DNA of 64,000 bases, taken from assembly GCA_903836515.1 (NCBI GenBank), contig CAILQW010000050.1, forward strand, positions 14,861-78,860, read 5' to 3'. This stretch comes from Candidatus Omnitrophota bacterium. Its GTDB lineage: Bacteria; Omnitrophota; Gorgyraeia; Zapsychrales; Fredricksoniimonadaceae. Positions 22,492 to 63,598 of this stretch are shown piece by piece. Each line of letters begins with the position of its first letter. Position 1 is the first letter of the stretch. Below the pieces are notes generated by a model, which worked only from the letters and a program-made list of their open reading frames with translations, was not told the DNA's origin and made no database searches. Position numbers and translations under genes: made by a program.

Positions 22492-22519
22492 GGAACAGCA
22501 CTGGAAGAATGAGGCTTCT

Positions 22520-25169: not shown

Positions 25170-25172
25170 GGG

Positions 25173-26582: not shown

Positions 26583-26606
26583 AATGACTCCTCTGTGGAT
26601 GTGTCT

Positions 26607-31070: not shown

Positions 31071-31679
31071 AAGACGGGACTGTTGTTGTCATCGGGCGGA
31101 TGTCAATGATGACCGGCGTGATGCCCGCGGCGTCCTGCAGGCGCTGGATCATGGCGGGGTCGAATTTATACTGGACAATTTCCCCATTATTATTCTTGAC
31201 GTTTATTCTGTCGCGGGTCAGGTCGATGCCGCCGGTGCCAGATTGAGACGCAGAATCGGGCAGAACAACATCGGGTATCCGGTTAACTGGTGATTTTAAC
31301 GAATTATCCCGAGGGGTGTTATTGTGTTTCGTTAGAAAATAATATAATTTCTCTTCATTCTTTACTGTAAAATCCCGTTTCAGCAGATCCTTTCTAAAAT
31401 ATCCGTTTAGAAATTCCTGGCCGGATGTTAAATCCGTAATATCAAACCCAGGTTTAATAAACGGTTGCAGCAATCAAAAAAATAATTGTTCAGATCCCCA
31501 TGGCTTAACCTTTTATAGAAACTGATGAGCATTTTTCTCAAGTCATCAATAACAAAGAAGGCGAATTCATCTCTGGACATACGACCTGCTGCGATACGGG
31601 CATCTTGAAAGTCGACTAATTTTAGACGGCTGATATATCCATCAGGGATTCTAAATTGTCCAAGTAGATTGATGTTCAT
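31051..31679 (-). pseudogene. Frameshifted small GIDL-module protein (family copy D, paralog of 62921..63598)
   Basis: Two overlapping ORFs in different frames on the same strand (31428..31679 and 31051..31473) reconstruct a ~210-aa protein. It ends in GGIDLTRDRINV...FDPAMIQRLQDAAGITPVIIDIRPM. The locus is AT-rich. Confidence 0.4.
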
Positions 31680-45820: not shown

Positions 45821-46234
45821 CTATTCGACCCTCACAGCCGCGATATCGAGTTTGGATATGCCCAGGGCGGTCATGATATCCAGGACATCAACGACGTCCT
45901 TGAAGCGGGTCTGCTGGTCGGATCTCAGGTAAACGTTCAGGCCGGGGCTGGTTTTCTTCATGGCAGCGATTTTGCTCTTTAGCTCCTTGTGCGTCACGAC
46001 TTTTTCATCAAGGTAAACCATTCCTTCGCTCGTGATTGTCACAACCGTCTGCTTGACCTTGCCGGCATCCCGGGGTTCGGCACTCTTTGATTCCGGGAGC
46101 TTGACCTTGATGTTGGACTGATAAATAAGGGGGGTTGCCAGCATGAAAATGACCAGGAGAACCAAAATCACATCCGTGAACGGCGTGATATTGATCTCGG
46201 CGACGAGCGGGCGTGTGCGCGGACGCCTTTTCAT
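45821..46234 (-). CDS. exbD: Biopolymer transport protein ExbD/TolR
   Basis: 137 aa. EINITPFTDVILVLLVIFM TM, then the periplasmic domain. Confidence 0.8.
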   Translation of the reverse strand: MKRRPRTRPLVAEINITPFTDVILVLLVIFMLATPLIYQSNIKVKLPESKSAEPRDAGKVKQTVVTITSEGMVYLDEKVVTHKELKSKIAAMKKTSPGLNVYLRSDQQTRFKDVVDVLDIMTALGISKLDIAAVRVE

Positions 46235-46849
46235 GACCTGGCTCCGATCAAAAGATCGCGTGCTTCGGAAGCCGCGATGTCCATGTCCATCACAAAACGT
46301 TCAATCCGGCTTTGGCAGTAATTGAAGGCGATGACCGCAGGGACCGCCACACAAAGCCCGACGGCCGTGCAGATCAGCGCTTCCGCGATGCCATTGATAA
46401 CAACCCCCATGCCGCCAGCCCCCTGCTGGGCGATATCATGGAAGGCGCGGATGATTCCCAGGACCGTGCCAAAAAGGCCGATATAGACCGCGGTACTGCC
46501 GATGGTGCCGATGATGGCCGTGCGGCGTTCCAGTTTGATGGTTTCGATGGTGATCTGACGTTCCATGGCGTTGTCCATGACTTCGCCCGTACTGTTACGC
46601 AAGGCCAGCCCGGTACCGACAACAGCGGCAAAAGGGGTCTCGGTGTGCTGGCAGATCTCCTGGGCCTTGGTAAAATTGCCCCGGCGGATCTGTCCGGCAA
46701 TATCCATCATGAAAATGTCGCGCGTGACACGGGATGACCTGTAATAAAGAATGGCCCGTTCGATGATAACCGCCAGGGAAAGCGTGGAAAGGAACATCAG
46801 GAGGATGACAGTCCCCCCGCCCAGTTGCAGCATTTGCCAGAGTGACATG
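46231..46849 (-). CDS. exbB: MotA/TolQ/ExbB proton-channel protein
   Basis: Three TM. Conserved C-terminal channel region (AIIGTIGSTAVYIGLFGTVLGIIRAF ... GIAEALICTAVGL). The ATG at 46849 is preferred over the track start at 47016. Confidence 0.8.
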
Positions 46850-46957
46850 AAAAACAACCTCCCCAGGAAGATCCTGTTACCGTTTGGATGGAAAAATACG
46901 TATGAAACTGTAGCAAAAACAAGTCGCGCCGTCAATGGGCAGGCGGAAAAAGAGAGA

Positions 46958-49106
46958 TTATGGGTTAACGGGGACCGATGGCGGGACAGCCGTTCCCGGG
47001 CCAAACAACGCATCAATCTTGACCGGACGCGGGCTTCCTACCGGAACTGGAAGAAAGCCTCGCAGGTCGCGTTGAAGGTGCAGGATTTCGGCGGGGTTAA
47101 ATTGAGAGCTGCCGTCAGGGCTCATCCCCATCACGTGAAGATAATGCCCCTGCCCCAGGTCAATACCGCCGTTGGGGGAAGCAGTGTCGATCGAAGTGGA
47201 TTCTTCACTGTTCCGGAAATGCTTCTTTAGAGCGAGCCAATGCCTGTTCAAAATATCGTTGTATATCTTCATCTTTGTTTTTGTGGTTTGATCATTCAAG
47301 TCCGTATGACGCGCGATGATCCTCATGAAAAGAGGAAAGAAAGGAAGATCGAGCCATAAGGAGATGAATGCCCCGCCTGCCGTGGCGGCGCAGATCTTGC
47401 CCACAGATGAATATTTTTTCCACCATGTCTTCATCCTGTCCGTGTTCCAGGGGGGCATATCATCCGTATCAGAACCGGATGTTTGCGCTTGATCCCTGAG
47501 CGTCCGGTAAGGCCGTGGTGGTACGAAACGTTTTGGCCATGGTTGAGCTCTGGATTTTTTTTGAAAGGCGTCCGCACGTGTTTTTTGTAACATATAAACT
47601 TCGGACATAAACATTTCAATTTTTTTGATTTTTTTAATATTATCACCCATAGACTCTTTGTGGGTCCTGAGAGCGTTAAACAGGTTGTTTAGCGCCACCT
47701 GATTGAACGTGTGATAATTGCGATGCAGGGCATCAGCCCCATTTGTGGATTTGAGTTTTTCCAGGAAATAACCGTAAGTATTGAGGCGTTGGTGGGTTTG
47801 TTGAGCCGCATCGTATTCCTGGTCGCTGTCTGTGGACATATCAAATTTTAGCTGGTAGGTAATTGTTTTATAATCTTCATTAAATCTTATGCCGTAGTTG
47901 TTATTGGCGTTATCAGGGTGCAGGGCTTTGTGAAAGGCAAGCCCGCCCGCGAAATATTTGCGTGCAAGAGGTTGTTGGGTCGTGCGGTCAAATTCTTCTT
48001 TCACGTAGTTGTAAACACCTTTCCGGTACGCCTGAAGGTATTGCGCGTATACCTGTTCCCTGGCGTTCTTCTGCGCGATTTCAAAGGCCGACTACCTTAT
48101 TTGTGCCTATATAAATCCGATTGATCAGACTGTTCTTTAAGCTGTTTTTGTACCACCCCGCCAGGATCAGGGAGTAAAAAATTTGCCGTAAGGGGGCAAA
48201 GTTTTTACCTTCGTTGACTTCTTTTTCGAGGATGGGGATGACGATGTCACGCAGGACATCCTTGATGATTATATTACGGGAGGACACAAGGTCCTCCCCT
48301 ACGCTCATGGAATTAACATTTTGTAGTGTAGGGGCGGACCTTGTATCCGCCCGTGCCATGTCCTTCTGTTGGGACATGGCTACGTCCCCGGCAGGAGCCG
48401 AGGATTCCGCCATGTCCTTCTGTTGGGACATGGCTACATAATCGCTTTCCAGCATTACCTTCAAATGGGCTTTTGTCACGAAGGCGTTGCCGTCGTGTTG
48501 ATATACTTCGGCTTCATCGGGGGTGATCCAGACCTTGTTGAAAGTATCCACCGGGATATCGGCATGGCCGAATTTCGCGTATACCTGGTTGTAAATGGTA
48601 TCCCAAAACTTCCGCCCAAGATCATTTTCCGGGTACATCAAGGTTGACATCACCTGCTTAAGGATGTAATCCTGCGCCAGCATGTCGCGCCCGGCATCGG
48701 TATGACTTAACGGATCGGCCATGATCCTGTTTTTTTCGGCGGGCGACAGGTTAACCCACAACTCGTTCTCCGGGACGGCCAGTCCTGCCAGGAAATATTT
48801 TACAAGACGGGTGGTCTCATCGGTCAACGTTTGCTCTTTCAGATCAGCCGTCCCGTTATCCACAATAAAATCGATCAGGAGAGGATCTTCAGGATGGAGG
48901 GACACACCCTTGAGCAGGACCGGCGTAACAGGTTCTGAAAGCCCGATCATCTCCCCCGGCTGGGGCAGATTAAAAACAGACTGGGCGTACCCCTGAGGAG
49001 GGATAATTATGTTAAAACAGAATATTGTTAGAATAATATATGTTTTAAGTCGTTGCATGGGTAGACCAATTGCCGGGAATTTTTGTAAAAAGTATAATAT
49101 ATACAA
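46958..49106 (-). pseudogene. Frameshifted paralog (~716 aa) of the N-terminal region of the giant protein, ending in the GIDL module (family copy E)
   Basis: ORFs 48081..49106 and 46958..48004 (same strand, different frames) are collinear with giant-protein residues ~40-400 (QPGEMIGLSEPV.. vs QPGAMVGLSPAY..; LHPEDPLLIDFIVD vs LHPEDPFRFDFMVH; DMLAQDYILKQV vs DLLAQDYLLKQL; KVWITPDEAEVY vs KVWIIPDRASVY; ARKYFAGG vs PRKYFSGG). The frame switch lies at about 48004-48081. The C-terminus is GGIDLGQG...FNPAEILHLQRDLRGFLPVPV. Confidence 0.55.
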
Positions 49107-53024: not shown

Positions 53025-53360
53025 ATGGAACAGCACATCATCCCTTTTATCTATCTTTTGTATATCCTGGTCTTGTCGGTATTTTTAGGTTTTGCGCTCA
53101 TCAGCCGCGTGCCGCCTTTATTGCACACGCCTCTTATGTCCGAAGCCAATGCCATTTCCGGCATCACCATTGTGGGCGCGCTCATCGCGGCGGGGTCCGG
53201 TGACGCCCATTCTCCGCTGACCATCTTTCTGGGCACCGCGGCCGTCGCCATGGCTGTTTTCAATGTTGTGGGCGGCTATTTGGTGACAGAACGCATGCTC
53301 AAGATGTTTAAATCAAAAGTTTCCGTTCATTCTGCTGCAACCGCAAAGGCAAAATCATGA
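53025..53360 (+). CDS. pntAB: NAD(P) transhydrogenase alpha subunit, part 2 (membrane dII-a)
   Basis: 111 aa, three or four TM (SGITIVGALIAAG motif). Confidence 0.8.
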   Translation: MEQHIIPFIYLLYILVLSVFLGFALISRVPPLLHTPLMSEANAISGITIVGALIAAGSGDAHSPLTIFLGTAAVAMAVFNVVGGYLVTERMLKMFKSKVSVHSAATAKAKS

Positions 53361-54733
53361 ACCACCTCTCCTGGATCAACGGTGTTTATATCATCAGCTG
53401 TATCCTGTTCGCGTTCGGGCTGAAATTTCTTGGATCCCCTGAAACCGCCCGCCGCGGCAACTGGCTTTCCGCCATGGGTATGCTCTTGGCTGTGCTGGCG
53501 ACCCTGACGTCGCGTGAGATCATTTCTTTCCAGTGGATCCTGATCGGGGGTATTATCGGCGCATCGTTGGGGACCCTGGTGGCCTTGCGCGCGGGCATGA
53601 CCCAGATGCCCGAGATGGTGGCCTTGCTCCATGGATTCGGGGCCTTGGCCAGCGTTTTTGTGGACTGGAGCGCATACCACAACCACACGCCGGATAACGC
53701 GATTGTCGTCACCGCGATCTATCTGTCGATCCTCATCGGCGGGGTGACGTTCACCGGAAGTCTTGTGGCCTGGGGTAAGCTGAGCGAACGGCTTCCCGGG
53801 AAACCACTGCTCTTCCCCGGCCAGCAAATGATCAGCATCCTGACCGTTGCAGCCATAGGTCTGCTGGCGATCCCGTTCTTCCTGAATCCTTCTGTTTATC
53901 CGGTATTTTTATGGATCCTGGGCCTGTCCCTCGTCCTTGGCGTCCTCTTGGTGATCCCTATCGGCGGGGCTGATATGCCGGTGGTGATCTCGGTCCTTAA
54001 CAGTTATTCCGGGCTTGTGGCGTGCACCACAGGGTTTGTGATCAACAATATCCTTCTGATTGTCGTCGGGGCTCTTGTCGGGGCCAACGGGATCATCTTA
54101 AGCTACATCATGTGCAAGGCCATGAACCGTTCGCTCAACAATGTACTTTTTGGCGCCTTCACCGCACGCGCAAAGAAAGCCGCAGGAACGGCCAAGGGTG
54201 AAGTCAAACCCATCAGCCCCCAGGATGCATTCCTCATCCTGGAGTCCGCACGTTCGGTCGTTATTGCCCCCGGCTACGGTCTTGCGGTCGCCCAGGCCCA
54301 GCACGCGGTTCGCGAATTGGGAGAACTTCTGGAAAAGAACGGGGCTGATGTGAAATACGCCATCCATCCGGTGGCCGGCCGCATGCCCGGGCACATGAAT
54401 GTCCTTTTGGCCGAAGCCAATGTCCCCTACGACCAGCTGGTGGAAATGGAACACATCAATCCGCTGATGGACAGCGTTGATGTGGCCATTGTGATCGGGG
54501 CCAACGATACCGTCAACCCCGCCGCGATCCACGACAAGACCTCCCCCATTTACGGCATGCCCATCATTGAAACATTCCGGGCCAGGACTGTGTTTGTGAT
54601 CAAGCGTTCCATGGCGTCGGGTTTTGCGGGGATCGAGAATGAACTTTTCTATTATGACAATACGCGCATGATCTTCGGCGATGCCAAGGATGTGGTGCAG
54701 AAGCTTGTGGCGGAATTCAAGGCCGGGAACTGA
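53357..54733 (+). CDS. pntB: NAD(P) transhydrogenase beta subunit
   Basis: 458 aa. N-terminal membrane domain plus C-terminal NADP(H)-binding dIII (VIAPGYGLAVAQAQH ... GANDTVNP). Confidence 0.9.
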   Translation: MNHLSWINGVYIISCILFAFGLKFLGSPETARRGNWLSAMGMLLAVLATLTSREIISFQWILIGGIIGASLGTLVALRAGMTQMPEMVALLHGFGALASVFVDWSAYHNHTPDNAIVVTAIYLSILIGGVTFTGSLVAWGKLSERLPGKPLLFPGQQMISILTVAAIGLLAIPFFLNPSVYPVFLWILGLSLVLGVLLVIPIGGADMPVVISVLNSYSGLVACTTGFVINNILLIVVGALVGANGIILSYIMCKAMNRSLNNVLFGAFTARAKKAAGTAKGEVKPISPQDAFLILESARSVVIAPGYGLAVAQAQHAVRELGELLEKNGADVKYAIHPVAGRMPGHMNVLLAEANVPYDQLVEMEHINPLMDSVDVAIVIGANDTVNPAAIHDKTSPIYGMPIIETFRARTVFVIKRSMASGFAGIENELFYYDNTRMIFGDAKDVVQKLVAEFKAGN

Positions 54734-57700
54734 CCGGCAGGACCGCATCTGCGATCAGGGCGGGAAGATCGGTCACAGGCTGTATATCCATGATCACAGG
54801 GATCAGCCCCGGGATCGGCCCCTCCGGCAGCGGACGGCGGTATTCCGGGAACCGGATGCAGATCTCATCCCCGCCGGTGTGCAGTTCGGTATTACGCGGA
54901 TTCAGATCGATACCACCTTTATCAAGCGGCTGTATTGAATTCCCATCCAGAGCCGGCTTGGCAGAATAATCCTTCTTTTCCCCTGGGATCAAACCAAGTT
55001 CTTGGCCCATTTCAATGATGTGCTCTGCCATATAGATTTTTCGATGATAATGCCGCTGTGTTGTTGAATGTTCTGAAGAAATCCAATAGCTCAGATCATC
55101 ATAGCCATCTTCATCCATTCCAACAAAACCCTGACTCACATAATGCTTGCCTAAGGCATACGCCAGATGTGTTATGCCGCCTTCAACCGTACCAACAATA
55201 TCAGCGGCTTCCATTAAATAAAGGATGCCCCGTTCATGCGGTTGCGGCACAGGCGCAAGCATGATGGAATTCAAATATTGCTCAGGAATAAAATTCATGA
55301 TAGATTTTTCATCTTCAGAACGGCTGAATCCCCACCCTGCTAAATGATTCATGTTCGGCATAAGAATGACAAAGAATCCCGATTCAATCAACTGTTGAAT
55401 TTGCCGGGCCCCGTAGCGAAACCCGAATTCCGATAATCCCTTGGCTGTCAACTCCCCGCCGAACGGATTCAAAAACACAACCGGTCTTTTTTCGATATTT
55501 TTCTCAGCCAATTCGGCCAAGAGTCTTATTTTCTGATCGGCCTCAGAACCTGAAACTGTCGTCATATAATGATCGGTTACTCCCTGGTTGTTACCTGACC
55601 TGTGTGGAAGGCCGAGTTGCTTCAAAAGATTAAGGGTGGGGGCATATTGATTGTCATCGTTTATCGGGCTCAACACGTCATTTCCCACACGGATGATATC
55701 ATAACCTTTGCGTCCGTAGGCGTAGGGGGAATGAATATAAATAGCAGGTTGCTGTCTTTTAATGACATCCTGGATCGCATCTTCCGCCCTTTGTGAAAGA
55801 ATTTTTCTGTCAGCGTCATAACGGTGAATGATCATGTCAAACTTTACAGCGTCAAACATAAAAGGAGGTGTCACTTTTATCCGCGGATGATTATACAACT
55901 GCGTTTGTTTCGTATAAACATAGATCTCAAGCTCCGGGTTGTAATCCAGCAGTGCTTGAACGAGTGATCCATTGCGTATGATTTCATCTCCCAGGCCTTC
56001 ATCCAGATTATGGACCAGCAGGACATTTTTCTTGCCGGTCTTAAGAATTTCCTCAACTTTCTTATGAATTGCGGTCTTCTCGTTTTTCCCAAGGTCCGGT
56101 TTTTTCTCATTAATCAAAGGAATGAGTTGTTCAAGCCCTTGTCGAAAATCATTCAAAGATCCGGCCTCATGTATGTTATTTTTAATCAGTAAATTCCAAA
56201 AAGTAGCAACACGTCCGTGAACACGTGAACTCATTTCAGCAAAAATCCTCAACTGCTCAAGTGATAGTGATGCCCCATGAAACCCAATCCTCCCTTCTAG
56301 TTGGTAATAGATAAAGTTGTGCGGTGAACTATCCAGATTGAGCAGGATCGCCTTGATCGAAGGCCAATATTCAAAGAAACTTTCGCCGTAATGTTCCTTT
56401 AAGTCCATAAAACTCCCGTTAATTAAATAACCCATGCTTGTCGCATCCGGTTCCTTAAACATGAGCTTAAAGATGTCTCCAATTTCATCAAAAAACCTGT
56501 GACCAAAAATTTTCTTAACTTCAGGCAAAAACTTAAAATATTGTCCGGGACGCCGACCCGCCGATAAGATCGCGAATTCTTTTAAATCATCCCAGTATTG
56601 CGGGATTTTATCGTCAAACACATCAACGGCGATTTCCCATATTCCCCAAACGTCACGACCCAGATCATTCTCGGCCGCCATGGTCCAATACATATTTTCC
56701 AATTCATCCAGAATACGCCGCATATCCTCACGGGAATGGATTAAATACGGTTTTAACGTCTTCAGTGAAGATAAGGCCAACTCAGCACCGACATTGGGTT
56801 GACGAGCATCGTTTTCTATCGAGCTTTGAATCAGCTTGAGTCCTAATTCAGGAAAATACTCCAGGTATTCCTCATTGGAATAACCATCAAACGGCATCCC
56901 GCCATTTGTCGTAAAAAACGGTTCTCTCCATTGCCGCACGCCAGCAACAGTGTCAACAACCTCATAGCCATAACGTTTAATAATATCTTCTATCAGCTGT
57001 CTTTTATCATCTGGCAGTTTTTTATATAACGATTGGGCATAAAATTCATTCTTAAAAGAGCTCTCAGACCTGTTATTAACACCTCGTTTAGCCCGTAAAG
57101 CCAATATTATTTCCTCTGCCGGCATTGATACCGGAACTCCACCCAAACCATCAATAAAACGGTTCCCGTTCATCGCGCCATCTTTCTTCTCTCCATCTTT
57201 CCTGGACGATCTTGATCCGGCGGTTTCATTCTTCGCGGCATGGAATAGATAGAGATTCGGATAAAATGCCGCATCATTTGCGATGCGAAGGATACCCTCT
57301 ACTGGATCTCCAACCAGATTGTTTTTCTTCAAAAATTCTTTGATCCGCATTTCATAACTTGCTTCCGGGATATCATCAATAAGACCAGAACTCGGACCAA
57401 TAATTATCCGCCAGAGAGCCAGAGAATTTTTATTCTGCGCCAACTTTTCTTTAAGTTCATTAAACAACATAATGAATTCACCAGGTGTTATATAATAAGC
57501 CCGGCTGTTATAGGAGAATCCCCTACGACGAAGATACCACGCAAGGAATTCTTCATTATAAACGGCCGGTGCGTTAAACAGATACACATCGGCATCGCCC
57601 ATCTCGCGAGACTGCTCAACCTCACCGCCTATGGGAATCTGTCCGGTGTCCCGCGCATAGCGCACATTCCACGCGGTCAACAGATTATGTGCCGGATTGA

Positions 57701-60700
57701 TATCATAGTATGTGACCCTGCGTGCCCCTGACAACAATGCCAGCAGGACATCGATCCCGGTTCCGGGCCCCTGGACACGAACAGTCTTGTTTTTAAATAT
57801 CCCGGCATTCTCAATAACAGCTTTCTGAAAATCTGCACTGCGATTATGGCGCGCCGAGAATATCTTCTCATGTGGAAGAGCATCAAGCATAACTTCTTGA
57901 AGGAATCCATCCGTCTTCTGTTCTGTGTAAGGCTTTACTGTCAGAAGAGAAAGCTTGTATCCTTGATCCCTTCCTTCCACGTTCCGGGACGCATTAATAT
58001 CTTGTGTATTTTCCGGAGATAAGATCAGTCCCGACCAGTCTTTAAAAGTTGCCAGTTTTGTCTTATTGATGACATCTTGCGCGTTTTTCAATATCCAATC
58101 CATTTTTCCAGGGTAAGACCATAAGAAAGATATATCAAAAAGAATATTTTTATCTTGGATCGGATCCTCCACAACCAGCGCCATGGGCAAATTGTGGAGA
58201 GTGTCAAATTTCCCACCATAATTCCCTTCTTGGGAATTAAAAGTAATCAGAAAGGCACGTTGGCTGGCCACAGGTCTTTCTGTATCACTAAATGTTCCGA
58301 AAAACGCTTGGCCCGCCTCATTGAGACGGATGGGGATATACCCCCACGCATTGCCATCACTGTCCGTATGAACGTGCGTATACTCCTGCGCCAGCTTCTC
58401 ATAATTCATACCGGGCGTATCCGGGAACTTTGCCATGGAGCTCAAAATCTCCCGGAACATCGGCAGGAACGCATGCTCACCGATGGAATGAATATACTTT
58501 TCCAAGAAATCCCCGGAACGGTCTCTTGAAGGTGGCAATATCATTTCTCCTGATCCCTGATTACCCGTAATAATGGATGCCTTGTCTTCAGCCGCTGTTC
58601 CCGTTGCCTCCATCCTGCTCTGGCCTGGCTGGTTATTAATCCTCTCATCGGCATCATGATTCTGTGTGAACGCCGGATTGTTGCGCGCAAAAGGCTCAAA
58701 AAAGTCCGGATTCTTTGATGCCGCAACCAGAAAATGTCCGGATGACAGGATGTGATGCGCGAGCGCATAATAAAGGGCGGACTGATAGTCCGGCGATGTG
58801 CTTGTCCCGGCTTCCGCCATCACCGCCAACACCGGCTGATCCGATGTCATCAAGTCCAGGAATTCCGTCAGCTGTTTGATGTTGTTTCCAAAGAGGCTCA
58901 GCTCCGGTCGCCGGTACCGGTATTCAAGCGTATCATCGTAATATGCAAATTTTTGAAACACCGGCATTGTCATCTTCTGATTTGGCGCATACCCTGTCGC
59001 CTGAGCGCACAGCAGATTTAAGACAAGTGTCTTCAAGTCTTCGCGTGTTAACGACCCTTCAGGTTCACCGTAAAGCTGAACATGGCGATGGGCATCTATC
59101 AAAAAATCAACCGGCTTGTATTCCTTCCCGGATTTAAGAAAATTCCGCGCTCCCTTAATTTCAACCTCCGGATTTTCATGAAACTGAACCAGTGTCCATT
59201 GCCGTTTCTGAATAAAACGAGCCAACTTTATCAAGGCCCCCATTTTATTTAACTCAAACTTGATATCAATATGCGATTCCTCATCAATCAGATATCCCCG
59301 TACCGCAGCCCTCACGGCCTCCTGTTGTGCCAGGAATCTCAGATAATCCATGCCATTTTTAAAATCTCCTAACCAATGTCGCAGTATCTTTTCAAAATAA
59401 TTGCCGAATTGATTCAAATAAACCGAATCAAAACTCTTCAACGCATCAACCAGATCCTTAACGGCATCTCCCGGCATTAATAGCGTTTTGATCCGATAGG
59501 CGTACATCACACTGGGCATTCCGGGGATATTCATCCCCCACACCCCTGGTTGTCTATCAAGAAAAGCAACAACCTTGTCGATCTGCGCGCGGACAATGTC
59601 CCAGCGTGTTTCATCATAAAGCGACAACGGAGGGACCTTTTGAAAAAGAATTTCATTAATGCGTCTCTGTAAGTCCGCGATCAGAGGGATCACTGTCGGT
59701 AATGGCATGCCCTCTTGCTGTCTGATTTTGTAAATTTCATTGAGCTCTTTATCAATTCCAACTTTCTCCTGCGTAAGATCGCCGCCCAAACTCAAGACCA
59801 TCTCGACCATTTTTACATACGCATCAACAAGAATGAAATAGGAGTCTCTCTTAATATTTCCATCTTCCTTGGTATAAATCATGAATTTTAAAAGTTCATG
59901 ATTAAACCGTGTCCAATCTATGTCACGATCCACACTGGACGTCACTGACAATAAGCCCTGTATCCGCTCCAGGGCTGTTTCTATTTTCTCAATATTGGGG
60001 GCATATTCCGGCGCTCCTAAAAGACCAAACATCTTTTGGCGTTCGAAGATCTCTTGGGGGTCACGGGAAGTTCCCTGTAGAAGGAATTTCTGAATCTCTT
60101 GGCCATAAAACATACCCAAAATATTCATGTCTTCTTTACTCATATCAAAAGGCGATCCACCATTCGATAATTCCATATCGTTGGAAAACATCTTGAATAC
60201 AGGATCATAGGTCAACTCCTTCTCTTTCAACGGGCCGCCAACCGAGGGATGAGAACCTTCTCGTTTTGCCACCGGGACAAGCCAGCCTCTTTCTGGAAAG
60301 AATCCGTAGAAATTCCCGGTTCTTTTCTTGAGAATTTCCCGTTGCTTTTCAGAATAGGTTTTAAGGGCAATCATTGGCAAAGGACGGATATTCTCCACAG
60401 AACGCTCAACGCCATCATGATAGTTTTGCGCGGTTTGCACGACGTCTTCCGGAAGACCAAGATCTCGTGCCACCTCAAGTGCATGCGAATCATCCGGCCC
60501 CGGGTGCATCTGATGGGTCTGAACGATCTGGCCATCATGCTGGTCAATCTTAAAGTGATAGACCGCTGTAGTTTTAGGATCATTAAGCCTGGAATCGACA
60601 AAAAGGCTATTATGCGTCGCCACCCTCACCCTAGCTCCGCGTTTAAGCAATTCATTTGTAAGCAGTTGTAATTTTAAGGTATGTTCCTCGGGCGACAACC

Positions 60701-62918
60701 TTGAGAATGGTTCATCAAGACAGACCAGCGTTTCATGCGTCACGCCGGATTCTTCTGGAAAAAGTTTGGCAATTTCAATACGTGAACTTTCCCGATCATC
60801 TACGAAGGCTAATTTCTTATAGATTCGGAAGTTTCCATCTGCAAAGGGACCATATCCAAATGTCTGGACCATCTTTTGGATCAGATAGTCGCGTTTGAGC
60901 CCGGTAAAGGTCTTGCCGGACATATTTGCTCCCCGGTAGATCACCAGCGGCTTATCCTCGGGTGAATCATTAAGGACCTGACCTTCTTTTGGTGCGTACG
61001 GCATCCAGGCGTCCTTGTATCCAATATGCTCATCGAGATTGAATGTTGCCGGGTGAAATCCCTCCCGGCGCGCCCACCATGTAAAATGCAGAAAAACATC
61101 AATCCGTTCCACAGCCGCAGAGATCGCCTCGAGTTCTTTACGGCGTCCCGCCAGAGCCTTGTAATCCTTTTCTCGGGCATAGGATAAAAGTGTTGCAATA
61201 TCAGATATATGTGATCCCGTGAGCAAGGCGTCGGCTTCATCCGCCAATTCGGTTAATAAAGGATCCTCCAGTTTTTTGACATCCTGAAGGAAAGCCGCAA
61301 CATCCTCAGCAACCTTAGTGAAGCGCGAAAAAACAGGATGATTGACGTCAATATCCGTGGCATTCTGAACACCGATCACAATGAGCGGCTCGGTGGCCCC
61401 AGGCAAACGAAGAAACAAATTTATGCACCAACCGATCTTGCCTTGGAGTCCCTGACTTTTTTCCACCAACAGGGCCTGTTTATCATCATTCAGCTTTAAA
61501 ATACATTTCACCGCAGCCTGCCGCTTCAAGATATCCGCCTTGTTAATTAATGGCGCGTCAATCAGATCGCCGATCAGCCTGTGATGTGTCCAAAAGTTTT
61601 CTTCCTCAGGTTTTTGTAAACTGTCACGGATCTGCGCTGTGGCGGTAGGAAACAGCGCCCCAGACTTTTGCGAATCCGTTGGTTGTTTAGAATTTTCTTG
61701 TGAGGCATCATTGGATCGTTGCGACGCAATATCGGCGCGTGTCCTAACAATAACAGAATCGGTTGCTTTTTTACGCATCTTGTCTGGCAGTTGCAACTCA
61801 TTGCTGATTTGTTCATACTTCTCCACCACGCCGCCGGAAAAATATTTGCGCGGGATCATGGTCCTGGAGCCCTCGTCATAATCCTCTTTAATGAAATTAT
61901 AAACACCTTGTTGGAACGCCTTAAGATACTGCTGATAAATCTTCTGGTTGATCTGTTTATCCTGGGTATCTACACCTGCGGTCCTGTTGTGATCGGTGTA
62001 AATATCCTGCAGAACACTGCCCGCCACATGGCGCTTGTACCAGGTTGCGAGGATCACGGCGTTTGAGATCTGGCGCAGATGCGCGAACGACTTGCCGGTA
62101 TTGACCTCCCGCTCGATCTCGGGGATGATGATCTCCCGGATAATTTCTTTGGCGATATCGCTCAGCGGCGTCAGATCCTCAGGGCGTGCGTCCCCCAGCC
62201 CGTGCCGGGTGTGGCTCTGATTGGCCTCCAGGGCCAGATAATCGTTTTCCAGCATAACCTTATGGTGACATCCGGTCACAAAGACCGATGTTCCGCTGAC
62301 ATAGACCGACGCACGGTCCGGAATAATCCACACCTTGTGAAAGGTCTCCATCGGGATCTCGTTTGTCCCGTATTTCTCCCGGGTTTTATCCTTTACCCGC
62401 TTCCAGAACGTACGCCCCAATTCTTTCTCGGGATACATCAGGCTGGCGGTCAACTGCTTGAGGAGATAATCCTGCGCCAAAAGGTCCCGCCCTATCTCGG
62501 TTGCACCGAATCCCTGCGGAATAATGCGGTCTTTCTCATACGGAGAAAGGTTGACCCACATCTCGTCTTCAGGCACTGTCATGGCCGCAAAGAAATATTT
62601 GATCAGGCGGCTGGATTCATCCCGCAGACTATCCCCTTTAAGATTGTCATCCCCGGGATGCACCATGAAATCAAACCGGAACGGATCCTCAGGATGGAGT
62701 TTCATGCCGATCATCAGGACAGGATCATAGGCGGGGCTTAAACCAACCATGGCGCCGGGCTGCGGCAGGCCGGGGATCGTTTCAACCGCGGGCACAATCT
62801 GCTGTGCCTGCGCCTGGGACAATCCGGATGAAAAAACAGACTGACAGATAAAGGAGATCAAGACCGTCAGGATCAGGGTTTTCTCAAGAAATTTGTTTTT
62901 TAAATGAAAATTGTGCAT
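54717..62918 (-). CDS. Giant (2733 aa) multidomain protein: signal-like N-terminus + conserved N-domain + MutS-type ABC ATPase + class-I MTase-like + GT9 heptosyltransferase-like + C-terminal GIDL module (family copy B)
   Basis: Continuous ORF. MutS domain V match at about aa 600-840 (RGANMSGKTF Walker A; LVCLDEPFSRLSPEEHT Walker B region; ATHN). MTase motif I VRVQGPGTGIDVLLAL plus YYDINP plus DVYLFNAPAV at about aa 1710-1790. GT9-like LLVHNLDEGLGDEII ... VVFLNPFGGE ... VEGGITHLAYALGKHYVS at about aa 2295-2600. C-terminus is GGIDLNPRNTELH...IPGLIPVIMDIQPV. GC is visibly lower than in neighbouring genes. Confidence 0.7.
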   Translation of the reverse strand: MHNFHLKNKFLEKTLILTVLISFICQSVFSSGLSQAQAQQIVPAVETIPGLPQPGAMVGLSPAYDPVLMIGMKLHPEDPFRFDFMVHPGDDNLKGDSLRDESSRLIKYFFAAMTVPEDEMWVNLSPYEKDRIIPQGFGATEIGRDLLAQDYLLKQLTASLMYPEKELGRTFWKRVKDKTREKYGTNEIPMETFHKVWIIPDRASVYVSGTSVFVTGCHHKVMLENDYLALEANQSHTRHGLGDARPEDLTPLSDIAKEIIREIIIPEIEREVNTGKSFAHLRQISNAVILATWYKRHVAGSVLQDIYTDHNRTAGVDTQDKQINQKIYQQYLKAFQQGVYNFIKEDYDEGSRTMIPRKYFSGGVVEKYEQISNELQLPDKMRKKATDSVIVRTRADIASQRSNDASQENSKQPTDSQKSGALFPTATAQIRDSLQKPEEENFWTHHRLIGDLIDAPLINKADILKRQAAVKCILKLNDDKQALLVEKSQGLQGKIGWCINLFLRLPGATEPLIVIGVQNATDIDVNHPVFSRFTKVAEDVAAFLQDVKKLEDPLLTELADEADALLTGSHISDIATLLSYAREKDYKALAGRRKELEAISAAVERIDVFLHFTWWARREGFHPATFNLDEHIGYKDAWMPYAPKEGQVLNDSPEDKPLVIYRGANMSGKTFTGLKRDYLIQKMVQTFGYGPFADGNFRIYKKLAFVDDRESSRIEIAKLFPEESGVTHETLVCLDEPFSRLSPEEHTLKLQLLTNELLKRGARVRVATHNSLFVDSRLNDPKTTAVYHFKIDQHDGQIVQTHQMHPGPDDSHALEVARDLGLPEDVVQTAQNYHDGVERSVENIRPLPMIALKTYSEKQREILKKRTGNFYGFFPERGWLVPVAKREGSHPSVGGPLKEKELTYDPVFKMFSNDMELSNGGSPFDMSKEDMNILGMFYGQEIQKFLLQGTSRDPQEIFERQKMFGLLGAPEYAPNIEKIETALERIQGLLSVTSSVDRDIDWTRFNHELLKFMIYTKEDGNIKRDSYFILVDAYVKMVEMVLSLGGDLTQEKVGIDKELNEIYKIRQQEGMPLPTVIPLIADLQRRINEILFQKVPPLSLYDETRWDIVRAQIDKVVAFLDRQPGVWGMNIPGMPSVMYAYRIKTLLMPGDAVKDLVDALKSFDSVYLNQFGNYFEKILRHWLGDFKNGMDYLRFLAQQEAVRAAVRGYLIDEESHIDIKFELNKMGALIKLARFIQKRQWTLVQFHENPEVEIKGARNFLKSGKEYKPVDFLIDAHRHVQLYGEPEGSLTREDLKTLVLNLLCAQATGYAPNQKMTMPVFQKFAYYDDTLEYRYRRPELSLFGNNIKQLTEFLDLMTSDQPVLAVMAEAGTSTSPDYQSALYYALAHHILSSGHFLVAASKNPDFFEPFARNNPAFTQNHDADERINNQPGQSRMEATGTAAEDKASIITGNQGSGEMILPPSRDRSGDFLEKYIHSIGEHAFLPMFREILSSMAKFPDTPGMNYEKLAQEYTHVHTDSDGNAWGYIPIRLNEAGQAFFGTFSDTERPVASQRAFLITFNSQEGNYGGKFDTLHNLPMALVVEDPIQDKNILFDISFLWSYPGKMDWILKNAQDVINKTKLATFKDWSGLILSPENTQDINASRNVEGRDQGYKLSLLTVKPYTEQKTDGFLQEVMLDALPHEKIFSARHNRSADFQKAVIENAGIFKNKTVRVQGPGTGIDVLLALLSGARRVTYYDINPAHNLLTAWNVRYARDTGQIPIGGEVEQSREMGDADVYLFNAPAVYNEEFLAWYLRRRGFSYNSRAYYITPGEFIMLFNELKEKLAQNKNSLALWRIIIGPSSGLIDDIPEASYEMRIKEFLKKNNLVGDPVEGILRIANDAAFYPNLYLFHAAKNETAGSRSSRKDGEKKDGAMNGNRFIDGLGGVPVSMPAEEIILALRAKRGVNNRSESSFKNEFYAQSLYKKLPDDKRQLIEDIIKRYGYEVVDTVAGVRQWREPFFTTNGGMPFDGYSNEEYLEYFPELGLKLIQSSIENDARQPNVGAELALSSLKTLKPYLIHSREDMRRILDELENMYWTMAAENDLGRDVWGIWEIAVDVFDDKIPQYWDDLKEFAILSAGRRPGQYFKFLPEVKKIFGHRFFDEIGDIFKLMFKEPDATSMGYLINGSFMDLKEHYGESFFEYWPSIKAILLNLDSSPHNFIYYQLEGRIGFHGASLSLEQLRIFAEMSSRVHGRVATFWNLLIKNNIHEAGSLNDFRQGLEQLIPLINEKKPDLGKNEKTAIHKKVEEILKTGKKNVLLVHNLDEGLGDEIIRNGSLVQALLDYNPELEIYVYTKQTQLYNHPRIKVTPPFMFDAVKFDMIIHRYDADRKILSQRAEDAIQDVIKRQQPAIYIHSPYAYGRKGYDIIRVGNDVLSPINDDNQYAPTLNLLKQLGLPHRSGNNQGVTDHYMTTVSGSEADQKIRLLAELAEKNIEKRPVVFLNPFGGELTAKGLSEFGFRYGARQIQQLIESGFFVILMPNMNHLAGWGFSRSEDEKSIMNFIPEQYLNSIMLAPVPQPHERGILYLMEAADIVGTVEGGITHLAYALGKHYVSQGFVGMDEDGYDDLSYWISSEHSTTQRHYHRKIYMAEHIIEMGQELGLIPGEKKDYSAKPALDGNSIQPLDKGGIDLNPRNTELHTGGDEICIRFPEYRRPLPEGPIPGLIPVIMDIQPVTDLPALIADAVLPVSSRP

Positions 62919-62920
62919 CG

Positions 62921-63598
62921 CTAACCGCCTTTTAAGGCAACAGGCTGGATACCCAGGAAGCTCGACAGGTTATCCATGGGCTGAATATTGATGATCACAG
63001 GCTCAAGCCCTGGCGCGGACTGATAACGCTCAAGAACAGCCGGATCCATTCTGAACACCAGACCAGGATTGTCGGATATTGTCTCCAGGCCTAACCGTTC
63101 GGGGGTAAGGTCAATACCGCCGGTATTATCCATTGTCACGGGAGTCCCTTGGAAAGCCACGACATTAAGGGGGAAATATTGGAAGAATGCTGCATTCTTC
63201 CTCGCCAAGGACTGGAACTCAGGCGAAAGCTTATAAAATGACCCCGGAAAAACATCTTCCCCATGATTCCCAGAGCTTTCGCTGTCAGTTACTTTCGAAG
63301 GAATGTCGTTTGTCCCCGCCCATCCTAATTTCAACGGGATTAACATTGCCCGCCCCTGGCTATCAACCTCTAGTTCCAGGTCGAATTCTGACGGGATAGG
63401 CATATCCTTTAATTGTGCATATAAGACACGACGCCCCTCCGGCGTCATGTTGTCAAGACGCCCCTTGAGAGGATCTGAAGAAAAGAAGAATTTGAACAAA
63501 GGGTCCAGCGCAGTGCCAGGCTTAATGCCCCTGATATCACTTTTATTGACAGATACTCCTATAGGATGCTGATGCGCCTCTTTCAGTATCATGTCCAT
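62921..63598 (-). CDS. 225-aa GIDL-module protein immediately upstream of, and abutting, the giant gene (family copy C)
   Basis: Stop codon TAG at 62921..62923 is 2 nt from the giant gene ATG (62916..62918). C-terminal 67 aa GGIDLTPERLGLET...FRMDPAVLERYQSAPGLEPVIINIQPM share the module. Confidence 0.55.
   Translation of the reverse strand: MDMILKEAHQHPIGVSVNKSDIRGIKPGTALDPLFKFFFSSDPLKGRLDNMTPEGRRVLYAQLKDMPIPSEFDLELEVDSQGRAMLIPLKLGWAGTNDIPSKVTDSESSGNHGEDVFPGSFYKLSPEFQSLARKNAAFFQYFPLNVVAFQGTPVTMDNTGGIDLTPERLGLETISDNPGLVFRMDPAVLERYQSAPGLEPVIINIQPMDNLSSFLGIQPVALKGG

What the first reader, a model, noticed from the sequence alone, without database searches (positions are those of the whole stretch)
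54717..62918. 2733-aa giant protein combining a MutS-type ATPase, a methyltransferase-like fold and a GT9 heptosyltransferase-like domain behind a signal-peptide-like N-terminus
The sequence shows a single uninterrupted 8.2-kb ORF. Reading the translation by eye, I see three regions that normally belong to unrelated cytoplasmic enzymes. First, a MutS domain-V ABC ATPase at about aa 600-840 (nt ~60398..61121): PLVIYRGANMSGKTF, ..LVCLDEPFSRLSPEEHTLKL.., ..VATHN. Second, a class-I SAM-MTase-like core at about aa 1700-1800 (nt ~57518..57818): VRVQGPGTGIDVLLALLSGARRVTYYDINP ... DADVYLFNAPAV, a possible degenerate (D/N)PP(Y/F) motif. Third, a GT-B/GT9 ADP-heptose-transferase-like region at about aa 2295-2600 (nt ~55118..56036): LLVHNLDEGLGDEII, VVFLNPFGG, VEGGITHLAYALGKHYVS. 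These are preceded by a hydrophobic signal/anchor-like N-terminus and a ~300-aa N-domain that is duplicated elsewhere in the window. The protein ends in the GIDL module. I know of no characterised protein with this combination. The MutS ATPase outside a repair context and the ATPase-versus-secretion topological conflict are both unusual. Hand-sampled GC (~45-50%) is lower than in flanking pntB (~60%), which suggests foreign origin.
Basis: partly seen in the sequence, partly recalled or inferred. Interest (0 to 1): 0.85.

Follow-up and report, generated by a model that had tools for sequence, protein, structure and literature searches.

The report
Omnitrophota signal-peptide multi-enzyme giant protein

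Summary
The 8.2-kb ORF (54717..62918, minus strand) is intact. The identical protein occurs on 7 contigs drawn from NCBI, Logan and ENA. MutS domain V is a direct Pfam hit with intact Walker A/B motifs, and a second, degenerate MutS-like copy follows it. The methyltransferase and GT9 calls fail on this protein alone. Both are recovered through its homologue families: PrmA/PRMT-like (profile vs PDB E=1e-9) and Glyco_transf_9/WaaF-like (Pfam 1.7e-8 in a 37%-identical homologue; profile vs PDB 7e-5).

The main result is context. At least 1976 protein clusters and at least 588 genomic loci, all apparently Omnitrophota, share the same frame. It consists of a Sec-type signal peptide, a ~330-aa N-domain with no known fold, variable enzyme cassettes, and a single ~60-aa C-terminal GGIDL tail that AlphaFold does not fold. 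No other retrieved protein combines this member's three cassette types (MutS-like, MTase, helical+GT9); one 7778-aa protein shares only the helical+GT9 cassette.

I favour export, with the enzymes acting outside the producer's cytoplasm and directed at a host or prey. This is inferred, not shown. The low GC of the cargo is a family-wide trait and is not evidence of foreign origin. Novelty: a new variant of the known Omnitrophota long multi-enzyme proteins.

The parts
62805..62918 (-). Sec-type signal peptide (aa 1-38). It has a basic n-region, the h-region TLILTVLISFICQSVF and an SQAQA|QQ site.
   Evidence: This is the only hydropathy peak above 1.6 in the protein. Family-wide, the n-region has a net charge of about +3 and the uncharged stretch is about 18 aa. 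A small-x-small motif is present in 111/115 members, and Q is the commonest +1 residue. This is a heuristic; SignalP was not run.
61803..62804 (-). Family-defining N-domain (aa 39-372). Conserved motifs include WVNLSPYEKDRIIP, TE(M/I)GRDLLAQDY.LKQ and PRKYFSGG.
61281..61802 (-). Hydrophilic linker plus a helical lead-in to the MutS cassette (aa 373-546).
   Evidence: There is a weak MutS_III match at aa 447-483 (E=0.1). The P0001 alignment starts at aa 547.
60309..61280 (-). MutS-type ATPase module 1 (aa 547-870), with catalytic motifs intact.
   Evidence: Pfam MutS_V matches aa 660-835. Walker A GANMSGKT, Walker B LVCLDE and ATHN are present. The best PDB sequence match is MutS2 at 7e-5.
58659..60308 (-). 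MutS-like module 2 (aa 871-1420), a degenerate pseudo-ATPase copy.
   Evidence: NCBIfam KamC matches aa 1295-1398 at 3.8e-11. It aligns in register with module 1: LAVMAEAG replaces LVCLDEPF, and AASKN replaces ATHN. GEPEGSLT, a Walker-A-like motif lacking the Lys, lies upstream at aa 1284-1291; its correspondence to GANMSGKT is my reading by position, because the alignment does not reach it. Module 1 also matches the second module of P0001.
57219..58484 (-). Methyltransferase cassette (aa 1479-1900). A ~200-aa accessory domain precedes a class-I SAM MTase core (aa ~1685-1870; GPGTG 1717-1721, D1739, YLFNAP 1779-1784).
   Evidence: The cassette is shared with P0002, P0003, P0006 and P0010 and with ~25 representatives, many of them 400-490-aa stand-alone proteins. 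PrmA hits 9/21 homologues. The profile hits PRMT at 1e-9 and PrmA at 2e-5 in PDB.
55059..57218 (-). Helical region plus GT9-like glycosyltransferase cassette (aa 1901-2620; GT module aa 2274-2620). GT motifs: GLGDE at 2308, NPFGGELTAKG at 2484, TVEGGITHLAYALGK at 2577.
   Evidence: aa 1957-2644 align as one block with P0126 (28.6% over 716 aa). About 120 representatives match the GT module. Glyco_transf_9 hits 4/52 homologues. WaaF 1psw is hit at 6.8e-5. Invariant G, D, K and E-G-G-x-x-H-L columns are seen.
54720..54953 (-). GGIDL C-terminal tail (aa 2656-2733; GGIDL at 2668, PVIMDIQPV at 2707). The stop codon is at 54717-54719.
   Evidence: The tail is found in 115/120 family proteins, always as a single copy, ending a median of 8 residues before the C-terminus. 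AF2 gives pTM 0.21 and almost no secondary structure. There is no PDB relative.
62921..63598 (-). A 225-aa ORF directly upstream. It has a GGIDL tail but no signal peptide and no N-domain. Its stop codon lies 2 nt before the giant's ATG.
   Evidence: No Pfam hit. It is on record on 15 contigs.
46958..49106 (-). A short paralogue: signal peptide, N-domain, ~300 aa and a GGIDL tail. It is split into two ORFs (48081..49106 and 46958..48004).
   Evidence: tblastn gives 40% identity to aa 1-365 across two frames. The second ORF continues the N-domain with ...ARKYFAGG and ends in a GGIDL tail.
31051..31473 (-). A small ORF (140 aa) ending in a GGIDL tail.

Best explanation
SHOWN. This is an intact gene of an Omnitrophota bacterium. 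It belongs to a very large family restricted to that phylum, with a fixed frame:
- a cleavable-looking Sec signal peptide;
- a ~330-aa conserved N-domain of unknown fold;
- a variable string of enzyme cassettes;
- one ~60-aa GGIDL tail at the extreme C-terminus that does not fold on its own.

The cassettes also exist as stand-alone proteins without a hydrophobic N-terminus, which suggests they were recruited from ordinary cytoplasmic proteins and shuffled between family members.

This member carries three cassettes:
- a tandem MutS-type ATPase, one copy with intact motifs and one degenerate, like an intramolecular asymmetric MutS dimer without DNA-mismatch domains;
- a PrmA/PRMT-like SAM methyltransferase with an accessory domain;
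- a helical region plus a GT9-like GT-B glycosyltransferase.

INFERRED. The protein is threaded through Sec and the signal peptide is cut after AQA. The shared N-domain and the unstructured tail are the family's common handles for what happens after Sec: recognition by a sorting, anchoring or release machinery, or docking to one another. The cargo needs ATP, SAM and a nucleotide sugar. I therefore take its site of action to be outside the producer's own cytoplasm, most plausibly on or in the host or prey cell that these small episymbiotic or predatory bacteria attach to. The three enzymes need not form one pathway.
For: Family and frame:
- 1976 hits, of which the 120 best share only aa 1-~370 (50-60% identity) plus the tail.
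- At least 588 loci in species-representative genomes. The 80 best are listed (78 distinct loci); nearly all are titled Omnitrophota/Omnitrophica or 'uncultured Planctomycetales' MAGs, with a few unclassified or Planctomycetales-labelled, and several fall in the same genome.
- The tail is present once, at the C-terminus, in 115/120. 73 of 108 N-domain ORFs in the loci carry it.

Signal peptide:
- It is the only TM-grade segment.
- Family-wide it has a +3 n-region, an ~18-aa h-region and a small-x-small motif in 111/115.

Cassette shuffling:
- Each cassette is found in different family members and as stand-alone proteins.
- Stand-alone versions lack hydrophobic N-termini (1/52 and 3/21, against 97/120 in the family).

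Domain identities.

Cargo in relatives is pathway-coherent enzymes. P0087 has enolase, PPDK, GAPDH, TIM and PGK. P0078 has isocitrate lyase and malate synthase. P0100 has glycogen synthase and branching enzyme.

Tail unstructured.

Literature:
- Omnitrophota long proteins with multi-enzyme content and signal peptides are read as extracellular or effector proteins (10.64898/2026.06.07.730766 sections 8, 9 and 21; 10.1101/2023.11.21.568195).
- PMC12419801 lists comparable domain mixes in gigantic Omnitrophota proteins, in its section on predator-prey toxins.
- A predatory or parasitic lifestyle is proposed in PMC10066038.
Against: - No experiment or dedicated predictor supports cleavage or export; the signal-peptide call is my own heuristic.
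- ATP-, SAM- and ADP-sugar-dependent enzymes have no known substrate supply outside a cytoplasm, and no delivery machinery is identified.
- No conserved neighbouring gene was found in 78 loci.
- The tail also occurs on proteins without a signal peptide, for example the 225-aa ORF just upstream. That fits poorly with a signal that would act only after Sec export.
- Pathway-coherent cargo in relatives is what a cytoplasmic metabolon would also look like.
- The N-domain model is only moderately confident, so 'no known fold' is provisional.
Confidence: 0.5

Rival explanations
1. Membrane-tethered cytoplasmic enzyme scaffold. The hydrophobic N-terminus is an uncleaved anchor, or is not used for export. 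The cargo works in the bacterium's own cytoplasm. The N-domain and GGIDL tail mediate assembly of many enzymes into membrane-associated super-complexes (a metabolon on a string).
For: - All three cassettes need cytoplasmic cofactors, and their motifs are intact.
- Stand-alone homologues look cytoplasmic.
- Relatives fuse consecutive pathway enzymes.
- The tail also occurs on proteins lacking a signal peptide.
Against: - The positive charge lies before the hydrophobic segment, not after it.
- A conserved small-x-small site follows the hydrophobic segment.
- There is no second TM segment to return the chain to the cytoplasm.
- By the positive-inside rule, everything after residue ~38 would therefore be outside.
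Confidence: 0.25
2. Surface coat or adhesion protein. The protein is exported and retained on the cell surface. The enzyme-like domains serve mainly as binding or scaffold modules: the GT9-like module would bind heptose/LPS-type glycans and the MTase-like module would bind protein. They would not act as cofactor-driven catalysts.
For: - Signal peptide.
- Giant Omnitrophota proteins have been proposed to form a coat or to mediate adhesion (PMC10066038).
- HEAT/helical scaffolding accompanies the GT module in homologues.
- One MutS copy is already degenerate.
Against: - Catalytic and cofactor motifs are conserved in MutS module 1, in the MTase (GxGxG plus an acidic residue) and in the GT module (GD, K, EGGxxHL) across homologues.
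- No adhesin-type domains were detected.
Confidence: 0.12
3. One reading: a one-off, horizontally acquired chimeric enzyme whose MutS, MTase and GT9 parts cooperate in a single novel function.
For: - The exact combination is unique among retrieved proteins.
- The cargo GC3 (0.40-0.50) is well below that of neighbouring genes (0.58-0.73).
Against: - Each cassette recurs separately in other family members with other partners.
- The head and tail have native GC3, and the low-GC middle is a family-wide pattern.
- No orthologue with the same architecture was found among 5.8 billion clusters or 1.84 billion representatives.
Confidence: 0.04
4. Artefact or decaying gene: an assembly chimera or a pseudogene that happens to stay open.
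For: - A neighbouring paralogue is split into two ORFs.
- The cargo has a relaxed-looking composition.
Against: - The sequence is identical on 7 contigs drawn from NCBI, Logan and ENA.
- 2733 sense codons without a stop at 46% GC cannot arise by chance.
- The catalytic motifs are kept.
Confidence: 0.02

Closest known systems
Omnitrophota very long 'multi-enzyme metabolic cluster' proteins (Nielsen & Lui 2026 preprint, class 1; West-Roberts et al. 2023 giant genes)
   Same: Same phylum. Both have many unrelated cytoplasm-type enzyme domains on one polypeptide and a frequent N-terminal signal peptide. Methyltransferase, glycosyltransferase and ATPase content is shared, as is the same unresolved topology paradox. 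One 7778-aa multi-TM protein (P0126) shares the helical+GT9 cassette.
   Different: Those studies define the class at >=10,000 aa (or >20 kb) with many TM helices. This protein is 2733 aa with no internal TM segment. It belongs to a sequence family defined by a specific N-domain and a GGIDL tail. I found neither described in those papers nor anywhere in the full-text library ('GGIDL' search), and neither has a Pfam or NCBIfam model.
Two-partner-secretion exoproteins (TpsA/CdiA) and polymorphic toxins
   Same: The logic is the same: signal peptide, then a conserved N-terminal ~250-330-aa handle shared by many paralogues, then variable payload. Modules are shuffled between paralogues.
   Different: There is no Haemagg_act/TPS Pfam hit. 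The predicted N-domain is mixed alpha/beta and not a beta-helix. The payload is central, not C-terminal, and consists of metabolic or housekeeping-type enzymes rather than toxins. No immunity gene or TpsB partner was seen.
Type IX secretion cargo (signal peptide + functional domains + conserved C-terminal domain)
   Same: A Sec signal peptide is combined with a conserved sorting-like element at the extreme C-terminus, shared by many otherwise unrelated proteins.
   Different: The T9SS CTD is a folded ~80-aa Ig-like domain and, to my knowledge, confined to the Bacteroidota. The tail here is shorter and is predicted unstructured. It has no database match, and it also occurs on proteins without a signal peptide.
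MutS2 / MutS-like ATPases without mismatch recognition (e.g. NCBIfam KamC reactivase ATPase)
   Same: An ABC-type MutS domain V with Walker A, Walker B and His motifs. Domain I is absent.
   Different: There is no Smr or other nuclease domain. The two copies sit in tandem on one chain and the second is degenerate. The module is embedded in a signal-peptide protein.
GT9 ADP-heptose:LPS heptosyltransferases (WaaC/WaaF)
   Same: The homologue family reaches Pfam Glyco_transf_9 and WaaF 1psw. The N-terminal G-D motif, the mid-domain G-G-x4-K motif and the C-terminal (D/E)-G-G-x-x-H-L-A motif are conserved.
   Different: This protein does not reach the Pfam threshold itself. Homologues are usually flanked by HEAT repeats. 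E replaces the usual D/S in the nucleotide-sugar motif. There is no LPS-core gene context.
PrmA / PRMT protein methyltransferases
   Same: A class-I SAM-binding motif I plus an acidic beta-2 residue. Homologues hit PrmA. The profile hits PRMT1, PRMT3, PRMT8 and CARM1 structures.
   Different: The similarity is confined to ~45 residues of the SAM-binding region. The accessory domain is unrelated. The substrate is unknown.

Membership tests
MutS family (Pfam MutS_V, ABC-type ATPase) | Domain V match above the Pfam gathering score | tested here: met
   31.6 bits against a cut-off of 30.2, aa 660-835. The margin is small, but TIGR01070 at 1.5e-10 and PDB MutS2 at 7e-5 agree.
MutS family (Pfam MutS_V, ABC-type ATPase) | Walker A GxxxxGK[ST], Walker B hhhhDE and a conserved His | tested here: met
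   GANMSGKT, LVCLDE and ATHN in module 1. Module 2 is degenerate.
MutS1/MutS2 orthologue (repair protein) | Mismatch-binding domain I, connector II and clamp IV, or a C-terminal Smr nuclease; equivalog score | tested here: not met
   No MutS_I, MutS_II, MutS_IV or Smr hit at E<=1. MutS_III matches only at E=0.1 over 37 aa. The TIGR01070 score is 40 against a cut-off of 642.
Class I SAM-dependent methyltransferase (PrmA/PRMT-like) | Motif I GxGxG and an acidic residue at the end of beta-2 | tested here: met
   GPGTG at aa 1717-1721 and D1739 in YYDINP. G132, G134 and G136 are invariant or nearly invariant in the homologue alignment.
Class I SAM-dependent methyltransferase (PrmA/PRMT-like) | Significant profile match | tested here: met
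   Not met for this protein alone (none; E~0.1-0.2). Met for its homologue family: PrmA in 9/21, best 1.8e-7; PRMT at 1.2e-9 and PrmA 3grz at 2e-5 in PDB.
Class I SAM-dependent methyltransferase (PrmA/PRMT-like) | Seven-strand Rossmann-like fold | not tested
GT9 heptosyltransferase (GT-B) | Pfam Glyco_transf_9 match | tested here: inconclusive
   There is none on this protein. P0019 gives E=0.19. 4 of 52 homologues match, and P0128 (37% identical to this module) scores 34.5 bits against a cut-off of 22.
GT9 heptosyltransferase (GT-B) | Similarity to solved heptosyltransferases and their conserved motifs | tested here: met
   The family profile hits WaaF 1psw at 6.8e-5 (0.63 with only 4 sequences). 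The G-D, G-G-x4-K and E-G-G-x-x-H-L columns are invariant. Assigning these to the GT9 catalytic motifs rests on my own knowledge of WaaC/WaaF.
GT9 heptosyltransferase (GT-B) | Two-Rossmann GT-B fold; ADP-heptose donor | not tested
Omnitrophota N-domain/GGIDL family (defined here) | Signal peptide + N-domain + single C-terminal GGIDL tail | tested here: met
Omnitrophota 'very long protein' catalogue (>=10 kAA; Nielsen & Lui 2026) | Length >=10,000 aa | tested here: not met
   2733 aa.
Two-partner secretion TpsA | TPS (Haemagg_act) domain with a beta-helix fold; TpsB partner | tested here: not met
   No Pfam hit. The model is alpha/beta with long helices. No conserved neighbour was found.
T9SS cargo | Folded Ig-like CTD matching the T9SS CTD models | tested here: not met
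   No NCBIfam or Pfam hit. AF2 gives pTM 0.21 with no beta-sandwich.
Anti-phage defence ATPases | Match to PADLOC models | tested here: not met
   Only PtuA at E=0.0047 and 14 bits.

The most novel reading that the evidence does not exclude
The conserved N-domain and the unstructured GGIDL tail are the two ends of an undescribed, phylum-wide sorting, delivery or docking system. Omnitrophota would use it to send multiple cytoplasm-type enzymes per genome (glycolysis, glycogen and glyoxylate enzymes, kinases, methyltransferases, ATPases) out through Sec. The enzymes would then work on or inside a host or prey cell, as a form of exported metabolism. Alternatively they would be assembled head-to-tail into an extracellular multi-enzyme coat.
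Probability: 0.3. Interest if true: 0.9.

Novelty: new variant of a known kind. Interest (0 to 1): 0.62.

Why it matters
Long multi-enzyme proteins with signal peptides are a recognised but unexplained hallmark of Omnitrophota. These are ultra-small, mostly uncultured bacteria thought to live on other cells.

This gene points to a compact, sequence-defined subfamily of 1.5-5 kAA proteins. Its head and tail are conserved well enough to be modelled, searched for and tested. That turns a vague phenotype ('giant proteins of unknown function') into concrete experiments:
- Does the signal peptide export?
- What binds the N-domain and the GGIDL tail?
- Are the cargo enzymes active, and where?

If the enzymes really act outside the producer, this would be a new mode of host exploitation. 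If they act inside, it would be an unusual way of organising metabolism on membranes.

For annotation, it also shows that names such as 'glucose-6-phosphate isomerase' or 'class I SAM-dependent methyltransferase' given to such 2000-aa proteins are misleading.

Tried and rejected
- Direct Pfam/NCBIfam scan for MTase and GT9 on the protein: nothing at E<=1. Scans of single homologue segments gave only sub-threshold PrmA and GT9 hints.
- Word-indexed homologue search with the GT module alone found nothing. With a 4-sequence profile it found only 3 proteins. The exhaustive representative search was needed.
- Tail: AF2 gave no fold, so no fold search was run. The profile against PDB was empty.
- I tried to model GT+tail together, but MAFFT misplaced the short tail fragments in a trial, so I modelled the tail alone.
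- Conserved gene neighbourhood: clustering ORFs in 78 loci gave only generic response regulators (15 loci) and histidine kinases (10 loci), and no dedicated partner.
- Defence-system reading of the ATPase: PADLOC was negative.
- Mobile or viral origin: only 3 N-domain loci in 2.9 million viral contigs.
- Foreign-origin reading of the low GC: rejected as specific evidence because the pattern is family-wide.
- Lipoprotein reading: SFIC does not fit a lipobox (my inspection).
- Double-glycine (C39) cleavage at GG|IDL: the residues upstream of GG are not conserved as in such leaders, so I did not adopt it.
Full report
OBSERVATION

The window holds a single open reading frame on the minus strand, 54717..62918. 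It is 2733 codons long and starts with ATG. The identical protein sequence is on record on 7 contigs drawn from NCBI, Logan and ENA; two were read here (one ENA, one Logan), and the longest on record is 89,946 bp. All show the same neighbours: a 225-aa ORF upstream and pntB convergent downstream. The gene is therefore real and continuous.

A member of the pntB cluster at >=90% identity is named 'Candidatus Omnitrophota' by NCBI. Nearly all listed relatives of the giant's N-domain come from Omnitrophota MAGs. The rest of the window is ordinary chromosome: aconitases, chorismate synthase, an RND efflux pump, MutY, exonuclease VII, H+-PPase, NhaB and pntAB.

THE THREE DOMAIN CALLS

1. MutS
- Pfam MutS_V matches aa 660-835 just above its gathering score (31.6 against 30.2 bits, E=2e-7).
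- NCBIfam mutS1 and mutS2 models match aa ~590-860, far below equivalog level. The best PDB sequence match is MutS2.
- Walker A (GANMSGKT), Walker B (LVCLDE) and the ATH motif are intact.
- There is no domain I, II, IV or Smr.
  - It is detected through the NCBIfam KamC model (aa 1295-1398, 3.8e-11). It aligns in register with module 1, but with LAVMAEAG for LVCLDEPF and AASKN for ATHN.
  - A Walker-A-like GEPEGSLT without the Lys lies upstream at aa 1284-1291. That alignment does not cover it, so I equate it with GANMSGKT by position only.
  - Module 1 also aligns to the second module of relative P0001.
  - The cassette is therefore an active plus degenerate tandem. It resembles an asymmetric MutS dimer on one chain; that comparison is my inference.

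2. Methyltransferase
- Nothing is found directly. PDB phmmer gives only E~0.1-0.2 to PRMT/CARM1.
- The exhaustive representative search found about 25 relatives of aa ~1479-1900, many of them 400-490-aa stand-alone proteins.
- Of 21 of these, 9 hit Pfam PrmA (best 1.8e-7) and others hit Methyltransf_23/25.
- Their profile hits PRMT structures at 1e-9 and PrmA at 2e-5, over the SAM-binding motif.
- GPGTG and D1739 are in place. The call is supported at family level. The fold was not modelled.

3. GT9
- Nothing is found directly.
- About 120 representatives match aa 2274-2620, most of them ~700-800-aa proteins with HEAT repeats.
- 4 of 52 hit Glyco_transf_9. P0128, 37% identical to this module, scores 34.5 bits against a cut-off of 22.
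- The family profile hits WaaF (1psw) at 6.8e-5, the only PDB hit outside HEAT/armadillo-type helical-repeat proteins.
- Invariant G-D, G-G-x4-K and E-G-G-x-x-H-L columns correspond, from my knowledge of WaaC/WaaF, to the GT9 catalytic and donor motifs.
- The apparently orphan aa 1901-2273 belongs to this cassette. aa 1957-2644 align as one block with the 7778-aa protein P0126.

THE FAMILY

The full-length search returned 1976 proteins.
- The 120 best are 1509-4743 aa long, and every source name that gives an organism says Omnitrophota/Omnitrophica.
- They share with the query only aa 1-~370 (50-60% identity) and, in most, the last ~60 residues.
- The N-domain is very strongly conserved (WVNLSP.E, TEMGRDLLAQDY.LKQ, PRKYFSGG), with 41 invariant columns in 29 diverse sequences.
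- It has no Pfam or NCBIfam model and no PDB sequence relative.

A hydrophobic N-terminus precedes the N-domain in the great majority of members examined (98-115 of 120, depending on the measure). It has a basic n-region (mean net charge +3.2), an uncharged stretch of ~18 residues and a small-x-small site, commonly AxA|Q, about 10 residues before the conserved mature sequence. No other segment of the giant reaches TM-grade hydropathy.

The tail has the consensus GGIDLNP..L.L......P.......I.GF.PVIINI.P..NLP.LLG.
- It is present once, ending a median of 8 residues from the C-terminus, in 115/120.
- AF2 leaves it essentially unstructured (pTM 0.21). It behaves like a linear signal or docking peptide and not like a folded domain.

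The 78 retrieved loci contain 108 N-domain ORFs, so tandem arrays are common. Only 3 loci were found in 2.9 million viral contigs.

Between head and tail the family carries very diverse Pfam content. Examples are PGI, PGK, enolase+PPDK+GAPDH+TIM+PGK, isocitrate lyase+malate synthase, glycogen synthase+branching enzyme, UbiB kinases, radical SAM enzymes, histidine-kinase ATPases and GGDEF domains.

Each of this protein's cassettes recurs in other members with different partners, and also as stand-alone proteins.
- The stand-alone forms mostly lack a hydrophobic N-terminus (1/52 and 3/21, against 97/120 in the family).
- No other retrieved protein combines its three cassette types (MutS-like, MTase, helical+GT9).
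- The only protein matching more than one of the regions I queried is P0126, and it carries just the helical+GT9 unit.

Four ORFs in this window end in the tail:
- the giant itself;
- the 225-aa ORF whose stop lies 2 nt before the giant's ATG;
- a split ~700-aa paralogue at 46958..49106;
- a 140-aa ORF at 31051..31473.

COMPOSITION

The gene is 46.5% GC, against 52.5% for the window.
- GC3 is 0.66 in the signal peptide plus N-domain and 0.59 in the tail. That is close to neighbouring genes (0.58-0.73). Every cargo cassette is 0.40-0.50.
- In 50 complete family genes from other genomes, the N-domain exceeds the middle in 43 and the tail does in 37. Flanking genes exceed the middle in 34/48.
- The low-GC cargo is therefore a property of the family. 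It could reflect relaxed codon selection, AT drift, or repeated cassette exchange. It is not specific evidence that this gene is foreign.

MECHANISM

The frame and the cassette identities are shown. The following steps are inferred.
- By the positive-inside rule and the conserved cleavage-type site, the chain after residue ~38 should cross the membrane through Sec.
- The head and tail are the only parts common to thousands of otherwise unrelated proteins. They are therefore the likely handles for a shared downstream step: sorting, anchoring, release or mutual docking.
- The cargo needs ATP, SAM and a nucleotide sugar. I favour action on or in a host or prey cell.
- This agrees with how the literature reads Omnitrophota long proteins (10.64898/2026.06.07.730766; 10.1101/2023.11.21.568195; PMC12419801; PMC10066038).

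The main rival is a membrane-tethered cytoplasmic scaffold. It explains the cofactor needs, the pathway-coherent cargo and the tails on proteins without signal peptides, but it contradicts the topology signals. I put roughly 0.5 on export and 0.25 on the scaffold.

No conserved partner gene was found, so the machinery is unknown.

NOVELTY

Long multi-enzyme, signal-peptide-bearing proteins of Omnitrophota are described, at >=10 kAA, in two preprints. The head-and-tail-defined 1.5-5 kAA family seen here is not described in the papers I could search ('GGIDL' finds nothing relevant). It also has no model in Pfam, NCBIfam, PADLOC or PDB. I rate it a new variant of a known kind. This particular protein is an ordinary member of that family with a unique cassette set.

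Noticed in passing
window 46958..49106 (-): A short paralogue of the family (signal peptide, N-domain, ~300 aa, GGIDL tail) is split into two ORFs (48081..49106 and 46958..48004). The N-domain continues across the break, so there is a frameshift, a stop, or a sequencing error. It overlaps the start of a MotA/ExbB-family gene (46231..47016).
   Followed up: partly
window 62921..63598 (-): A 225-aa ORF with a GGIDL tail but no signal peptide or N-domain. Its stop lies 2 nt before the giant's ATG, and an AAGGCGG Shine-Dalgarno-like run sits at its end. It is probably co-translated with the giant, and could be a remnant of an upstream family gene.
   Followed up: partly
window 31051..31473 (-) and 31428..31679 (-): A small ORF ending in a GGIDL tail. 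It overlaps a second small ORF in another frame, so this may be another disrupted tail-bearing gene. It lies next to a B12-binding radical SAM gene (29628..31070).
   Followed up: no
window 54717..62918 (-); loci L001-L078: GC3 is bimodal inside family genes. The conserved head and tail resemble neighbouring genes, and the cargo is lower. This holds here (0.66 and 0.59 against 0.40-0.50) and in most of 50 family genes from other genomes.
   Followed up: yes
alignment A5 (family C-termini): After the NLPLLLG end of the tail, many members have an acidic stretch and then a terminal (E/Q)LS(L/F)x(K/Q/N) motif at the very C-terminus. This giant lacks it.
   Followed up: no
window 54717..54733: The 3' ends of the giant gene and of pntB (53357..54733, +) overlap convergently by 17 nt.
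   Followed up: no
window 20419..22602 (-): A 727-aa protein fuses a cyclic-nucleotide-binding domain, an AAA_31 (ParA/MinD-like) ATPase and a patatin-like phospholipase.
   Followed up: no
window 24558..29315 (-): Two aconitase-family sets lie side by side: a 902-aa aconitase (26607..29315) and a split large/small subunit pair (25173..26582 and 24558..25169).
   Followed up: no
P0126 (7778 aa, from the representative search): A much longer protein with clusters of TM-like segments and no family N-domain shares the helical+GT9 cassette (28.6% over 716 aa). The same cassettes therefore circulate between this family and the multi-TM giant proteins.
   Followed up: partly
N-domain model m6be048ed51cc, residues 86-93 (giant aa ~125-132): The most conserved motif of the N-domain (WVNLSPYEKDRIIP) falls in a loop of low AF2 confidence. 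That would fit a ligand- or partner-binding site rather than a structural core.
   Followed up: no
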